From NCBI GenBank assembly GCA_012295275.1, contig CM022672.1, forward strand, positions 23,560,001-23,624,000: 64,000 nt of DNA, in the 5' to 3' direction. The stretch comes from Chrysomallon squamiferum. Lineage: Eukaryota > Animalia > Mollusca. The notes beneath the pieces are model-generated. The model searched no databases and was not told the DNA's origin. It saw only the letters and a program-made list of their open reading frames with translations. Positions 21,687 to 41,265 of the stretch are shown in pieces (position 1 is the first letter of the stretch; every line of letters begins with the position of its first letter). The position numbers and the translations under genes are program-made.

Positions 21687-24600
21687 ATGCATGTCACGTT
21701 TATATTCTTGTTTCATTTTTGTCTTTCTCTTTTAGAAGCATGCACAGGTAAGATTTCGAATGAATGAATGAGTAAACCTAACGGGACACTTGATAACGGG
21801 TGCTATGAGTCATGAACAGGTAAATATATATGTATAAATAAATCACGTGATTTAATTCAGGCCAAAATAATATGTTGTTACTGTATGAAATAATGTATGT
21901 TGTAGTTACCAACCCGACCATTAATGTGTTGCCAGCGATGAACCCTAAAGCATTCGTGCTCTTATTAACCATTTTAACTGAGAATGCATGATAATTCTGT
22001 CTCATCCAAATCTGGTAAAGAATTCTGCTTGTATATTTGCAAGTGTGTTCGTTTCAATTTGTGGATGTGCGTGTGTGCGTGTGTGTGTGTTTAAAATGTA
22101 ATTACCTCAGATGGTTTACATTAATTTCAGGACAGAAGTGGGTAAGTAATATTGATTTTAAATGTTAATATTTTTTACAGTTGAATCTCTAGAAAGTATA
22201 CTTTGTTATTATTATTATTATTATTATTATTATTATTATTATTATTATTATTATTATCATCATCAACATCATCTTCATCATCATCCTTATCATTATTATT
22301 AGTCAAAAATATGGCAGCAGTAAGTAACACGAAAATAGTAAAAGAAAATCCAATAGGCTAAAAATATTATATACTAACCAGGATATAGGAGAAACAAATG
22401 GCTGCAGGTATTACCGAATTTTTGCCCCTCGGATGCATTTTGATAGATGATTCGCCTGGTTCACGATTTCGAGGACGTTTCTTCAGGATAAACGTGTAGT
22501 GAACTAGTGGCATGAAACACTATCCATGTACCTCGAGAAAAGTGGTCTGGTTATTTTCTGTCATCTTTCCTTTCTGGTATCTTTTAATTTTTTCTACTAA
22601 CTCCTTGGCCAAATTTATTCTCTTTAAATGGCAACAACTATTTGATCAAAATAACAGGCAGCGTGATATAAATAAAATTTCGACTGCAATGATATATATT
22701 TTTTTATCTTGGCTTGATCAACCTTCATGTCCTACCGTCTGACTGATCTTTGAACCAAAGCGTTAAGGTTTCAAATTGAAAATTAAAGCGTGTTGCCATT
22801 TATTTAACAATTAAAGCGTGTTGCCATTTATTTAACAATACCTTAAACATAAAAACATAAAGAACCGGGTCATTTCCATAATATTTTCGACCATATTTAC
22901 AGACCTCTTAAACGGTCGCGCAAGTCGATTGACATCGTTTTGTCAGATATCTGGAGATGTCTAACAGTTGTGTTCCTGACAGAAATGTTTTTAAAAATAA
23001 AATATAATAATTTTGTAAACGAAAATAAATTATTATAAAAATCAAACACTTTCCAAACACTATTACTCAGTTAAAAACTAACAATAATGACAAACGAGGA
23101 TACATTAACGTCTGAAACATATGTTTTTTTTTATTAGATTACTGATACTGAGAGACAATTTATTAATACCGTAGCTTTCATAAATTACACAGAGCCAAAA
23201 CAACAACAACAAAAAAGAAAGCAAAAAACCCACCAAAAAAACCCAGACAAAAATAAAACAAAACAAAAAACAACAACAATAAGAATAAATTATTTTAGAA
23301 TAATGAATGACAGTAAATTATTATTATTTTGTTTTCATGGGTTTTTTCGTCATATGAATAAATTTTACATGATGCTAAATTGATCATTGCGAAGTAAATA
23401 AGGAGATAAGGAAAGTTCGGCTGTGAATACAGACCTAGACTTACGACTTTTTAACTTTACGACAGAACGACTGACAATGGGGCCATGGCTAATGCTTTGT
23501 TCATAATTCTCTGCTAACAAGATGCAAATTGCTTTTTCATTACTGGGATTTACGAGTAACGAGTGAAAAACAACAACAGTTCAGATTAAGCTGAAAATAT
23601 TTGTAAAGGAAATTACTCCACCTGATACCGAAGACTGCAACATCTTGGTCCACTTCTCATCACCAGTGATCATTAAATATTTTCTGTTTTCTTCTTCTTC
23701 TTTTGTTTTGTTTTGTTTTTGTTTGTTTGTTTGGTGGATAAGGACATGATGTTGTAGTTGTAGCAATTCTCCATACTGCTTGTTGTAATTTGAGCATCTG
23801 CGCCAACCTTGATAATATCCTGTTAGCGATTAACTTAAGAAATTTGGAAATAACCCTTAGACATTAATACTGCCAAGTTCAAAGTATAAAATTAATCCAG
23901 ATTTGAAACAGTTATGTGTAAATGAATCGTACATAGAAAAGATTCAGACCGAGCTAAGCATTTTTTTCATTTATTTTCAAATAGCTTAGAAAAACCAAAG
24001 TCGTTATGCGTGTTAATGTCTATATAAACTTGCTCAGTAATAACGTAAAAAACAATTATATATTTCTTTTACACCCGAGCATATAAGATAAATAAAATAC
24101 ATATAAATATCTTTCAATATAGCCTTCTCATAAGAACAGAAACAAATATTCAATATGTAGTAAGAGAGCGCAGTTTCCGATTTCATATAATTAAAGGGGC
24201 GTTTGCTGGTGAGTTAAATCACGTAATATACATATCAGCGTATGTCTTCTGTCAAGCATTATCTGCTTTGCACATAAAACTACAAATCAGCTCCACTTTA
24301 GTTGACACTATAAAATTTAGAAAACAATAAACTAAAATAATATATACTTTGTAAAGTGAACTTTCGTTAGATTCATATACCCTAATAATAATTTGATTAT
24401 CATGAAGATCAGTATCAGAACACATTATGAATTCGCATTAAAATATAATAAAATTCAGTAGTGAAGATACCAACCAACACATTGTTCAGTTTTGATATAT
24501 TTTTATTATTATTATTTTTTTTTTTTATGAAATATTTCAGTTAAAAAAATAAATAAGAGTGTTATTTTCTGTTTATTAATTCTTTTAAGTGCTCATGCCA

Positions 24601-26818
24601 AAATCGTGAAGTCTACTGCAAATGTGGATGTCGAAGCGATTCCGCACAGGAAGTGATGTGTTGTCATTCGTGTCCTTGTTTCCCTGGCGATGTATCTGTT
24701 CGCCTTGACACAGGAAAAAATGTACAAATGAAAAATCTTGTCACAGGGCAAAAAATACTATCTGGTAAGTTAGCTGTGTACTATGTACAGTTTGAGTTTG
24801 TGAAATAGAATTATTATATATACCTTTTTTATACGTGTATGTATGTATACATGTATGTATTAAGTATATATGTATGTATGTATGTATGTATGTGTCTGTT
24901 TATATGTATGTATTTTGTTCATCTTTTTCGTTTTTTTTTTGTTGCTATCAGTTATATTTGTCAGGCTGATCGTATTTAAAAGTTTGTTTTTTCTTTCTTT
25001 CTTCTATTATAAACAACGAACAACTAGACAAATATTAATATTAATGGTTAAAAGCATAGATACCGTTTATAAACAATGAACAACTCGATAAATAGTTTTT
25101 ATAATGGTGAAAAGCACGCGTTTTTAGCTTTCGTAGAAAACTATTACTGATTATGAGCTCCAATAATTTCTGTGCTGCTGTACACAGACTGTAGTCACGT
25201 ACTTGAAACGTTGATTAAGACAGATACAACTTCTGAAAGAGAATTGGTCCTCATGAACCCAGCCCAGGAGACAATGATGGTTATCAAATCCTCTAAATGT
25301 GACACGATTTTTTTTATTTATTTATTTTTTTTTTTTTTTTTTTTGCCATATTAGACATAACAAAACATTTAGAATTAAAATGTAGTCTATTTCTTTTATC
25401 AGTGCAAAATGGAAAGAGAACATTTTCTGAAGTCAAAACATTTCTGCATCGGGAACCAGCATCGAACACGACATTTGTAACGCTGATTACAGAGCAAGGC
25501 CATCGTATCACTCTCTCCGAATTACACATTGTATTTGCTTCAGCAAACAAGTCAGCCAACGTGGAACCCAGGTACTTTGTTTTTATATTTATCCCCTATC
25601 ACAAACTTATTTACAATTCATAAAGAAAAAATATTTGTGTACAGATATAATCAAGCTATATTAATAGCATATCTTACTTTCCATTCGCATAATCTAATTC
25701 CTATGGTGACAAAAACAAGATTTACTTCAAGGGTCGGCAACCTTTTTGAGAAACGGGTTCAGACTGCTATGCAGTGTTTTGGGGGAGGGCCAAGATATCA
25801 AATGTTTTACACACACACACACACACACACACACACACACACACACACACACATCGGTATCTCTCTCTTTCTCAGTTCTATCTTTAATATTGAGCATTAA
25901 AAAGGGATGCTAGGTAGGCTGCCTTGTTCTGGAGGTTTAAAGAAAAAAAAAACGAAATTAATGTAACAACTGGTACCCAAGTTTTCTGCTGGTGGGCCGG
26001 ACTAAAATCCCTCGCGGGCCAAGAAAAAAAATACTACCGTACCTATGAAAATAACATATGTCTGCCAAAATTTATTAGAAGTTGCTTAATTTATAATATT
26101 TTATCCTTCAGGTTTGCTCGATCTGTAAAACCTGGTGATTATTTACATAGCATGGAAGATGATCTCCGTCCAGAACGAGTTGTTCAGATATTTGTCTCTG
26201 TGAAACAAGGTAATCTGAATTAGGCTTATTTTTATTAGGAGTAGTAGTGTAAACCGTGGTGCAGGTGCTAGTTTTACCATAGTTGAAGAACAGCTGACGC
26301 GACAGAAATTCAGACTAATCAATATCAGTTTAATTCAGCATTTGGACATGCATTCCACAAACATTACCAAATATTGACATTCAGCAAAGCTGTGCAAATA
26401 AAATTAAAAACAAATAATAATAATAATAATAATATTTAGTAAAATCAAACACCTTTCTTCTTTCCTTAATAGATATACGTTTCTTTTCTGACATAGTTGT
26501 ATATATACATGTATATATCCTCACAGAGAGAGAGAGAGAGAGAGAGAGAGAGAGAGAGAGAGAGAGAGAGAGAGAGAGTCTAAAATTATATTTACGTTAT
26601 CTCAGGTTTTTACGCTCCTCTGACGGACACGGGGACACTTGTAGTTAATGGGATTCTGGCATCGTGCTTTGCACATTTTCTCCAACAAGATTTGGCACAG
26701 TTCTGTTTGTTTCCGTTGCGATGGTTTCCATTGGCTGTTAGAACCGTGGCAAGAAGACGGTCTCAGTCCGCTGATGTCTCACGCGAAGGACATACTACTG
26801 TATTATTTCCCAGAATAG
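21687..26818 (+). CDS. Secreted Cys-rich peptide-Hint/Hog autoprocessing protein, copy 1 (6 coding exons; 1-nt frameshift near 26731)
   Basis: Exons 21687-21747 (signal MHVTFIFLFHFCLSLLEACT), 22131-22141 (GQKW), 24590-24764 (CSCQNREVYCKCGCRSDSAQEVMCCHSCP-CFPGD...), 25403-25571 (FSEVKTFLHRE...ITLSELHIVF), 26112-26209 (FARSVKPGDYL), 26606-26818 (GFYAPLTDTGTLVVNGILASCFA...FPLRWF). All junctions are GT-AG and phase-consistent. As sequenced, the last frame runs to 27000. Confidence 0.85.
25728..26046. mobile_element. Possible hAT-type MITE remnant with (CA)n inside a Hog copy 1 intron
   Basis: Starts CAAGGGTCGGCAACCTTTTT, resembling hAT-type termini, with internal GGGCCG/CGGGCC motifs; right end degenerate. 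Confidence 0.4.
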
Positions 26819-40800: not shown

Positions 40801-41265
40801 AGGTAATCTAATTATGGTTCCAGTAGTCGCAGTTTTAGTACTAACAGTAGTAACAGTAACAGTATTAGTAGTCGTACAGCAGCAGGAAAAGAAATCATCG
40901 CAGTAAACATGATAGTCATCGTGATGACAACTGCAGTAGTGAATATTACGTAAAATCATTTTTTAGCAGTAATAAAAAATATATGATTATTAATAATATT
41001 AAGAAAAATAATATCAATCAAGTTATTTAAATAATTATTAAAACCAGGTTTGTACGCTCCTCTGACGAATACTGGAACCGTTGTTGTTAACAAGATTGTG
41101 ACATCCTGCTTCGTAAACTTTCTCAAACACGATATAACACAGATCATACTACTTCCATTTCGATGGTTTCCTTCGCTGATACTGCCGTGGCAAGAAGACG
41201 GTTTGAGTCCATTGTTATCAAACATGGAATATATATTATCATATTATTATTTTCAGTTCACTTAG
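37870..41265 (+). CDS. Secreted Cys-rich peptide-Hint/Hog autoprocessing protein, copy 2 (6 coding exons, intact)
   Basis: Exons 37870-37930 (signal MCVMLLGFFVLYISASETNK), 38535-38569 (GQINNQNLKRSY), 39404-39605 (GSCRCGKQILLCKCGCHPGTYSKEYIHKCCKPCLKPGK-CFPGD...), 40180-40348, 40696-40802, 41048-41265 (YAPLTNTGTVVVNKIVTSCF...LPFRWF). Exon structure and phases match copy 1; TATA-like TATAAAA near 37840. Confidence 0.88.
38182..38405. repeat. Minisatellite, ~31-bp unit, about 7 imperfect copies
   Basis: Repeated AGGGTATATAACTAG(A/G)TCTGAGTAT-type unit in intron 1 of Hog copy 2. Confidence 0.8.

What the first reader, a model, noticed from the sequence alone, without database searches (positions are those of the whole stretch)
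21687..41265. Family of signal peptide + 8-Cys micro-peptide + Hog autoprocessor genes: candidate self-cleaving, sterol-tagged disulfide-rich peptides
Seen: two paralogous six-exon genes encode a signal peptide, a short Cys-rich peptide and then a full hedgehog-type Hint domain (CFPGD ... SxxH ... YAPLT.TGT.VVN....SCF) with an SRR-like tail (FPLRWF/LPFRWF). No Hedge domain is present. Predicted mature peptides are QKWCSCQNREVYCKCGCRSDSAQEVMCCHSCP (32 aa) and SYGSCRCGKQILLCKCGCHPGTYSKEYIHKCCKPCLKPGK (40 aa, Lys-rich), sharing C-x-C-x6-CKCGC-x9/12-CC-x2-C with variable loops. Established: Hog domains cleave before the Cys of CF and attach cholesterol to the released N-terminal fragment, and hedgehog-related Hog fusions with other N-termini exist in nematodes and lophotrochozoans (e.g. 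Lophohog). Inference: a route to lipidated toxin-, defensin- or signal-like peptides, i.e. an animal RiPP-like system with the modifying enzyme fused in cis. I do not recognise this Cys framework and cannot confirm it is undescribed.
Basis: partly seen in the sequence, partly recalled or inferred. Interest (0 to 1): 0.88.

Follow-up and report, generated by a model that had tools for sequence, protein, structure and literature searches.

The report
Snail Lophohog variant: 8-cysteine peptide precursors
Two related genes, likely from a snail, each join a short eight-cysteine peptide to the self-cutting tail of Hedgehog; they fall in the already named Lophohog family, likely cut themselves to release the peptide and may attach a lipid to it, although they lack three residues that Sonic Hedgehog needs to attach cholesterol.

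Summary
Both genes are real: six GT-AG exons each with identical phases, a hydrophobic leader, an 8-Cys peptide, then a Hog (Hint plus tail) domain. RNA contigs confirm 3 of 5 introns of gene 1 and none of gene 2. Gene 1's tail has a one-base frame break in the window, likely an assembly error. The family is not new. The Hog domains nest in a clade with the named Lophohog of the chiton Acanthochitona crinita (97/95; grouping with Hedgehog rejected, p-AU 0.010), among nine Gigantopelta paralogs. Lophohog's six-Cys spacing (CxCxC-x10-CC-x-C) is kept, with an extra CxC that one Gigantopelta protein shares. 'Signal + short peptide + Hog' was described in 2008. Catalytic C1, H72 and C143 are intact, so self-cleavage is likely. 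The sterol tag is open: the general-base Asp is His here (active when engineered into Drosophila Hedgehog) but Lys in 17 of 17 mollusc relatives, and the equivalents of SHH H374, H433 and Y435, needed for cholesterol transfer, are lost. New here: the 8-Cys variant, loop variation among paralogs, cargo swaps (astacin) and altered active-site chemistry. Verdict: new variant of a known kind.

The parts
21687..21747 (+). Gene 1 exon 1: start codon and predicted signal peptide
   Evidence: GT donor, phase 1; best 10-residue hydropathy 2.28; no RNA cover
22131..22141 (+). Gene 1 exon 2 (11 nt), predicted
   Evidence: Top-ranked of 113 in-frame mini-exon candidates; not seen in RNA
24590..24764 (+). 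Gene 1 exon 3: all 8 peptide Cys (24590-24676), Hint Cys1 at 24677-24679 preceded by Pro, Hint block A
   Evidence: Pfam Hint; RNA contig from 24657 joined to exon 4
25403..25571 (+). Gene 1 exon 4: His at the general-base position 46 (25447-25449); SxxH block B (25516-25527)
   Evidence: Aligns residue for residue with Drosophila D46H structure 6TYY; both junctions in RNA
26112..26209 (+). Gene 1 exon 5: Hint core
   Evidence: Both junctions in RNA
26606..26818 (+). Gene 1 exon 6: Cys143 (26665-26667), motif K, tail with PWQEDG; one-base frame break at 26730-26731 in the window
   Evidence: RNA contigs X1 and X3 one base shorter
37870..37930 (+). Gene 2 exon 1: start codon and predicted signal peptide
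   Evidence: Same length (61 nt) and phase as gene 1; hydropathy 2.94; no RNA cover
38535..38569 (+). Gene 2 exon 2 (35 nt), predicted short propeptide ending in a Lys-Arg site
   Evidence: Phase fits; only 5th of 87 candidates by crude splice score; relatives have KR/RR before the peptide; unverified
39404..39605 (+). Gene 2 exon 3: 8-Cys cationic peptide (39404-39517), Hint Cys1 at 39518-39520 preceded by Lys
   Evidence: Pfam Hint; predicted 40-mer pI 9.2, charge +6.5; no exon indel in X2 contig
40180..40348 (+). Gene 2 exon 4: His46 (40224-40226), SxxH (40293-40304)
40696..40802 (+). Gene 2 exon 5: Hint core
   Evidence: tblastn to gene 1
41048..41264 (+). Gene 2 exon 6: Cys143 (41107-41109), motif K, tail with PWQEDG, stop

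Best explanation
These are two paralogous genes of the Lophohog branch of hedgehog-related genes, each encoding a predicted secreted precursor whose Hog domain likely cuts itself off and likely transfers the released 8-cysteine peptide onto a membrane lipid alcohol, possibly a sterol, recognised differently from cholesterol in Hedgehog. SHOWN: gene anatomy, splicing of the Hog part of gene 1, placement in the Lophohog clade among Gigantopelta paralogs, kept C1, H72 and C143, His at position 46, loss of HWY and of the motif-K His. INFERRED from Hedgehog chemistry: entry into the ER, four disulfides, N-to-S shift at Cys1 helped by SxxH, a branched thioester on Cys143, attack by a hydroxyl nucleophile at the membrane with His46 as base, and trimming of gene 2 at Lys-Arg. 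My odds by step: Lophohog-clade membership 0.93; self-cleavage 0.8; some lipid adduct 0.45 overall (cholesterol itself about 0.3). The peptides likely act as membrane-tethered ligands or defence effectors, diversified after lineage-specific duplication; their target is a guess.
For: Clade: window pair + 17 mollusc proteins including A. crinita Lophohog 97/95 and 99/98; window + HWY-type Hh rejected, p-AU 0.0102. Catalysis: C1, B-His and C143 kept in both genes; B-His and C143 in 17 of 17 mollusc relatives, C1 in 16 of 17 (one truncated); Ser for Thr in block B in 13 of 17. C1, H72 and C143 are required in Hh (PMC9163320 and PMC12054796, passages). His46 matches 6TYY; D303H keeps activity and widens the sterol range (PMC9163320 section 11). 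Hog dN/dS between paralogs 0.34 over 160 codons. A model of the Gigantopelta 8-Cys relative gives a Hint fold (6TYY and 1AT0 first, rmsd 1.8 A) followed by helices 223-243 and 250-262. The tail keeps P379, R381, 9-11 aromatics and amphipathic stretches. Parsimony (inference): many relatives already use KR/RR sites to trim the peptide's front, so keeping a 190-residue autoprocessor from chitons to snails suggests it does more than cut.
Against: SHH H374A, H433A and Y435A do not cholesterolyse in vitro (PMC7242414 section 8); both genes have Q, S and L there, and the motif-K His lost here is kept in 17 of 17 mollusc relatives. The clade's usual residue 46 is Lys (17 of 17), for which no cholesterol transfer data were found. 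PMC2362128 states that it is unclear whether nematode Hh-related proteins add cholesterol. Gene 1 has Pro at -1, which hinders some inteins (recalled), although Pro at -1 also occurs in P0035, P0020 and P0022. Second-helix hydrophobic moments (0.40-0.47) are below those of two HWY-type controls (0.73-0.79). The peptide's tie to Lophohog is Cys spacing only: 25 and 19 of 500 full shuffles, and 296 and 257 of 500 Cys-fixed shuffles, score as high. Gene 2 has no RNA support. No cleavage or adduct has been measured.
Confidence: 0.45

Rival explanations
1. Self-cleavage without a tag: the Hog domain forms the thioester, water resolves it, and a free disulfide-rich peptide is secreted; the tail only holds the precursor at the ER membrane or sends the spent domain for degradation.
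For: HWY and motif-K His are lost. An SHH mutant lacking the second helix cleaves without cholesterol. Replacing D303 by A, N, R or E speeds thiol-mediated cleavage, and the clade has Lys there.
Against: His46 supports sterolysis in Drosophila HhC. The tail is conserved (PWQEDGLSPL identical between paralogs). Simple release is available through dibasic sites.
Confidence: 0.27
2. No efficient cleavage: the Hog domain serves as folding aid, display scaffold or membrane anchor, and the peptide stays attached or is released by another protease.
For: Ser for Thr in block B and Pro at -1 in gene 1; T326A strongly lowers Hh activity. Cargo varies freely in Gigantopelta paralogs, from 7-8 residues to astacin.
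Against: C1, H72 and C143 are invariant across the clade, which a pure scaffold would not need.
Confidence: 0.14
3. The thioester is resolved by a protein or peptide nucleophile: head-to-tail cyclisation of the peptide or ligation to another protein, as with some intein-like domains.
For: In the three Haliotis proteins a dibasic run directly precedes the first Cys, which would give an N-terminal Cys plus a C-terminal thioester. A possible signal cut after residue 18 of gene 1 would also expose a Cys.
Against: Not conserved: Patella, chiton, P0003, P0030 and gene 2 have other residues before the first Cys. Furin-type cuts come later than ER autoprocessing (established knowledge), and the Cys are likely disulfide-bonded.
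Confidence: 0.06
4. The peptide is a metal-binding, metallothionein-like unit (CxC, CxCxC, CC, CxxC clusters) rather than a disulfide-knotted ligand; or one or both copies are decaying duplicates.
For: Clustered Cys motifs. Zinc inhibits Hh autoprocessing. Gene 1 has a frame break in the window and gene 2 no RNA cover.
Against: No metallothionein Pfam match at E up to 1 or 5. A secretory route favours disulfides. dN/dS is 0.34, and gene 1 is spliced in RNA contigs that are one base shorter over the broken exon.
Confidence: 0.08

Closest known systems
Lophohog (lophotrochozoan hedgehog-related; A. crinita APD15680.1 / A0A1J0M5N9; family as described in PMC5103448 and PMC9695228)
   Same: Signal, short Cys peptide directly before CFPGD, Hog domain, no Hedge; same clade; CxCxC..CC..C spacing; tail without HWY; 43-48% Hog identity
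   Different: Extra N-terminal CxC (8 rather than 6 Cys); CC-x2-C rather than CC-x-C; both conserved Trp and the W-x-D-x-V/I end lost; variable loop; His rather than Lys at 46; Gln rather than His in motif K; duplicated
Gigantopelta aegis XP_041356242.1 ('indian hedgehog protein-like', P0030) and its paralogs
   Same: Same 8-Cys framework type (CxC-x13-CxCxC-x8-CC-x2-C); 53-54% Hog identity; PWQxDG tail; window pair nests among nine Gigantopelta paralogs (95/91, 91/89)
   Different: Lys46 and motif-K His kept; different loop lengths; four paralogs carry astacin (Pfam), others other or very short cargo; machine-annotated only
Short-hog / Ts Xhog3 of enoplean nematodes (PMC2362128, section 3)
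   Same: Signal peptide, a 15-34-residue predicted released peptide, then Hog
   Different: Different phylum; sequences not on hand, so relationship untested; no 8-Cys frame described in the parts read
Hedgehog C-terminal autoprocessing domain (Drosophila 1AT0, D46H variant 6TYY; human SHH)
   Same: Hint fold, C1, H72, C143, P379, R381; natural His at 46 equals the engineered D46H
   Different: No Hedge ligand; -1 residue is Pro or Lys, not Gly; SxxH; H374, H433 and Y435 equivalents lost

Membership tests
Lophohog | Hog (Hint + tail) domain at the C-terminus | tested here: met
   Pfam PF01079 on six of six exon pieces; PDB hits 6TYY, 1AT0, 6TD6, 7E2I
Lophohog | No Hedge domain; short secreted N-terminal region | tested here: met
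   53 and 70 residues before Cys1; leader hydropathy; exons 1-2 unverified by RNA
Lophohog | Hog domain groups with a named Lophohog, apart from Hh | tested here: met
   97/95, 99/98 and p-AU 0.0102 against Hh. That APD15680.1 is the paper's chiton Lophohog is inferred from its name and from the paper reporting one such gene; no true mollusc Hh in the tree
Lophohog | Shared unique N-terminal motif | tested here: inconclusive
   Six-Cys core pattern present, but profile scores are only marginal against full shuffles (25 and 19 of 500) and null against Cys-fixed shuffles; Trp positions lost
Lophohog | Likeness to the founding Lottia gigantea and Capitella sequences of Buerglin 2008 (Genome Biol 9:241) | not testable with these tools
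   Paper not held; founders not named among the 46 hits; supplements of PMC5103448 unreadable
Hedgehog proper | Hedge signalling domain | tested here: not met
Hedgehog proper | Asp46 general base | tested here: not met
   His in both genes
Hedgehog proper | SRR residues H374, F377, R381, H433, Y435 | tested here: not met
   Q, L, R, S, L in both genes; L at 377 also in Drosophila, so 2 of 5 compatible
Short-hog (nematode) | Signal + very short peptide + Hog architecture | tested here: met
Short-hog (nematode) | Common descent with nematode Short-hog genes | not tested
   No nematode Hog sequence was on hand
RiPP-like lipidated peptide | Released core peptide carries a covalent modification made by the fused enzyme | not testable with these tools
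   Needs biochemistry or MS
Described Cys-rich toxin, defensin or metallothionein families | Profile or structure match of the mature peptide | tested here: not met
   No Pfam family on the peptides at E up to 1 or on 12 relatives at E up to 5; no convincing PDB sequence match; peptide fold not modelled (pLDDT below 50), so a fold match is untested

The most novel reading that the evidence does not exclude
In one snail lineage, Lophohog has become an animal RiPP-like system: a duplicated, portable Hog ligase with a rewired active site (Lys46 to His, motif-K His and HWY lost) attaches a lipid other than cholesterol to a library of fast-changing disulfide-rich peptides, and in Gigantopelta to astacin proteases, tethering them to membranes for defence or control of symbionts.
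Probability: 0.17. Interest if true: 0.82.

Novelty: new variant of a known kind. Interest (0 to 1): 0.48.

Why it matters
Hedgehog is described as unique in its covalent ligation to cholesterol (PMC7242414 abstract), and whether hedgehog-related Hog domains add any adduct was left open (PMC2362128). These precursors are small (about 240-265 residues), need no partner enzyme, and carry natural changes at exactly the positions studied in Hedgehog: His46 here, Lys46 in 17 of 17 relatives, no HWY. That makes the open question directly testable. A positive result would give a second class of lipidated animal signalling or defence peptides and new ligase specificities. A negative result would show Hog kept as a plain self-cleaving device. 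No paper on the biochemistry or peptide motif of Lophohog, on Lys46, or on the Gigantopelta expansion turned up in the searches run (open-access library only, and the founding paper was not readable).

Tried and rejected
No whole genome is held, so paralogs could not be counted. Word-index protein searches with single exons found nothing; the full HMMER scan with exon 3 of both genes did (22 hits), and a profile with four relatives gave 46 hits among 4541 candidates (four top rows were in the query). Two scans of metagenome contigs gave no relative (99 and 420 pattern hits, 0 confirmed). Exact look-ups of the two exon-3 translations were negative. AlphaFold of exon 3 failed (pLDDT 48.6), and the peptide stayed below 50 in the deeper model, so disulfide pairing and fold are unknown. 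The Atlas search with P0013 returned generic Hint clusters only; the peptide-only Atlas search did not complete. Absence of RNA cover over exons 1-2 and gene 2 is not used as evidence of silence, since contigs show presence only. Summed contig depth (634 over gene 2 exon 4 against about 55 nearby) is not used as a copy number. A 17-nt alternative exon 2 for gene 1 (22303-22319) fits the phase but scores lower. A true hedgehog gene with a missed Hedge exon was rejected: the intact peptide frame abuts Cys1, and relatives have the same layout. A pseudogene reading of gene 1 was rejected on RNA evidence. Likeness of the Lophohog Cys core to the Cys-rich segment behind astacin in the Gigantopelta fusions was noticed but is not resolved (1 and 53 of 500 shuffles for two of them). 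Tree rows left out: three outgroup proteins without a detected Hog start, all fragments, and ten further outgroup hits; ten more outgroup rows.

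
Full report
1. Observation. 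The window (GC 30%) holds two + strand genes at 21687-26818 and 37870-41264, separated by an acyl-CoA dehydrogenase gene on the - strand (Pfam). Built by coordinates, each has six exons with GT..AG introns and the same phases 1,0,1,2,1. The products are a hydrophobic leader, an 8-Cys peptide, and from Cys54 or Cys71 a Hog domain of about 190 residues. Exons 3, 4 and 6 of both genes match Pfam Hint, six of six. The Hog parts are 67% identical (107 of 160) with dN 0.21, dS 0.60 and dN/dS 0.34 by my own Nei-Gojobori count.

2. Transcript support. Three RNA runs of one study join exons 3-4, 4-5 and 5-6 of gene 1, each joint in two runs, at depth 2.4-4.4; one contig starts at 24657 and links the last three peptide cysteines to the Hint with no mismatch. 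No contig reaches exons 1-2, and gene 2 shows no joint. By a crude splice score the 11-nt exon is the best of 113 candidates, the 35-nt exon only fifth of 87. So the N-termini and mature lengths remain predictions.

3. A correction. Read in frame, gene 1's tail loses all likeness to gene 2 after WFP. The matching tail (PWQEDGLSPL identical) lies in the next frame, and the DNA alignment shows one extra base near 26730-26735. RNA contigs X1 and X3 are each one base shorter over this exon region (table 8). Another gene in the window, at 54300-54700, is full of small deletions. An assembly error is the likely cause; a private allele is not excluded.

4. More paralogs. X2 contigs differing from gene 2 at 6 of 64 and 7 of 75 bases cannot be gene 1, which differs at 12 of 64 and 18 of 75. 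An X3 RNA contig has a motif-K sequence unlike either gene. At least one further paralog therefore exists and one is transcribed.

5. Family. A full HMMER scan with exon 3 gave 22 hits; a wider profile gave 46. The close ones are three Haliotis proteins, Patella caerulea, nine Gigantopelta aegis proteins, Liolophura, and Acanthochitona crinita APD15680.1, named 'lophotrochozoan hedgehog-related'. PMC5103448 (passages) reports one A. crinita Hh-related gene, places it in the Lophohog clade, and finds 11 Hh-related genes in Lottia cf. kogamogai. PMC9695228 (passages) defines Lophohog as a Hog domain plus a unique N-terminal domain. In a 39-row tree of Hog domains the window pair and these 17 proteins form one group (97/95), with the pair inside the Gigantopelta set (95/91). 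A 29-row tree gives 99/98 and 91/89, and rejects joining the pair to HWY-type Hh (p-AU 0.0102). Neither tree holds a true mollusc Hh, a nematode Hog or the founding Lottia and Capitella sequences. The source animal is inferred to be a gastropod related to Gigantopelta.

6. The peptide. Eight Lophohog-type proteins share CxCxC-x10-CC-x-C-x6 (loop 10 in 7 of 8, 9 in one), with two Trp. Genes 1 and 2 keep that core as CxCxC-x9/12-CC-x2-C, lose the Trp and add an upstream CxC. Gigantopelta P0030 is the only other protein examined with the same 8-Cys pattern. Unnamed ENA fragments (P0001, P0005, P0009) show loops of 13, 15 and 16; P0004, P0005 and P0009 each report a 409,003-base contig, likely one cluster. 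Non-Cys core identity between genes 1 and 2 is 3 of 14 at 66% Hog identity; Haliotis pairs have 61-74% at 86-91%, and abalone, limpet and chiton pairs 11-32% at 45-54%. So the loops change fast, on small numbers. Against my reading, a profile of the eight Lophohog peptides scores the window peptides only marginally above full shuffles (25 and 19 of 500 as high) and not above Cys-fixed shuffles. Homology of the peptide rests on Cys spacing and its place before an orthologous Hog; fragments of both types also read into an intron at the same place. No Pfam or PDB family covers the peptide, and AlphaFold did not model it.

7. Architecture in print. PMC2362128 (passages, and section 3 parts 2-3 of 4) describes Short-hog genes with signal peptides and predicted released peptides of 15, 25 and 34 residues, and says it is unclear whether nematode Hh-related proteins add cholesterol. 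The founding Lophohog paper (Genome Biol 2008, 9:241) was not held; I recall, unverified, that it gives a released peptide of about 22 residues. The supplements of PMC5103448 could not be read and may bear on the motif. Earlier AI notes report similar layouts in giant viruses and Cryptosporidium (unchecked).

8. Active site. Both genes keep C1, the block-B His and C143, all required in Hh (PMC9163320 passages; PMC12054796 passages). Block B has Ser for Thr, as do 13 of 17 mollusc relatives. Position 46, Hedgehog's general-base Asp, is His in both genes; exon 4 aligns best to the engineered D46H structure 6TYY. That variant stays active and accepts more sterols (PMC9163320 section 11; primary papers not held). 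All 17 mollusc relatives have Lys there, and 12 of 14 distant outgroup Hogs have His. Since the pair nests among Lys46 proteins, His46 is likely a derived change. A model of P0030 gives the Hint fold (rmsd 1.8 A to 6TYY and 1AT0) plus C-terminal helices.

9. Sterol recognition. In SHH, H374A, F377A, R381A, H433A and Y435A do not cholesterolyse in vitro, while all still cleave with 50 mM DTT (PMC7242414, section 5 part 1 and section 8). The two genes have Q, L, R, S, L. Leu at 377 also occurs in Drosophila, so two positions fit and three do not. The HWY motif is missing in all 16 mollusc relatives whose tail is complete; the motif-K His is lost only in the window pair. The tail still has 9-11 aromatics and amphipathic stretches, with a weaker second helix than two HWY-type controls.

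10. Mechanism. Most likely the precursor enters the ER, the peptide forms four disulfides, and the Hog domain performs the N-to-S shift and forms the Cys143 thioester (odds 0.8). The resolving nucleophile is open. I favour a membrane lipid alcohol (0.45 overall; cholesterol about 0.3), because the whole tail has been kept from chitons to snails while dibasic sites already offer simple release, and because His46 is competent. Hydrolysis to a free peptide is the close rival (0.27). The role of the peptides is a guess: fixed Cys, variable loops, duplication and one cationic member (+6.5) fit ligand or defence diversification. Nothing shows toxicity.

11. Novelty. The family and the architecture are known. 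Not found in print (open-access library only): the 8-Cys variant, the expansion with cargo swaps including four astacin-Hog models in Gigantopelta (machine models, unverified), clade-wide Lys46, and His46 with loss of the motif-K His. PMC13738340 and PMC7053062 (passages) added nothing decisive. Verdict: new variant of a known kind, interest 0.48, with a cheap decisive experiment.

Noticed in passing
window 53480-55950, - strand: Predicted secreted precursor of three to four tandem Gly/Ser-rich units of about 130 residues, each starting with Gln after a basic residue and ending in GFWFG-KR, which suggests N-terminal pyroglutamate and C-terminal amidation. No Pfam family above cut-off. Possibly an undescribed polyprotein worth its own look.
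   Followed up: partly
window 54300-54700, - strand: One unit of that repeat gene has many small deletions and frame breaks: either a decayed repeat or unpolished assembly.
   Followed up: no
window about 30400-37200, - strand: Multi-exon acyl-CoA dehydrogenase gene (Pfam N, middle and C domains; short/branched-chain type by recall) lying between the two Hog genes; no sign of a functional link.
   Followed up: partly
window 42.7 kb and 44.6 kb onward, + strand: Two tandem sodium:solute symporter (PF00474) gene starts.
   Followed up: no
window 18430-19889 and 13607-14098, - strand: A long ORF pair without a Pfam match above cut-off at 18.4-19.9 kb (overlapping frames, perhaps another frame break or a short intron), and a PAAT-like exon at 13.6-14.1 kb.
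   Followed up: no
P0028, P0029, P0031, P0035 (Gigantopelta aegis): Four gene models fuse an astacin metalloprotease to a Lophohog-type Hog domain; three have a Cys-rich segment with CxCxC between the two. If real, the Hog module has been joined to a protease.
   Followed up: partly
17 mollusc Lophohog-clade proteins: All have Lys at the position of Hedgehog's general-base Asp46; no paper on this was found.
   Followed up: partly
P0039 (Pollicipes pollicipes): A barnacle protein with signal, propeptide, a short 4-Cys peptide and a Hog domain without HWY falls next to the Lophohog clade (85/79 and 90/77, not starred), so short Cys peptide-Hog genes occur in arthropods too.
   Followed up: no
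P0002, P0011, P0015 (unnamed ENA fragments): Other Cys-rich peptides directly before a Hint start; P0002 has two Lophohog-like peptide-Hint starts in tandem.
   Followed up: no
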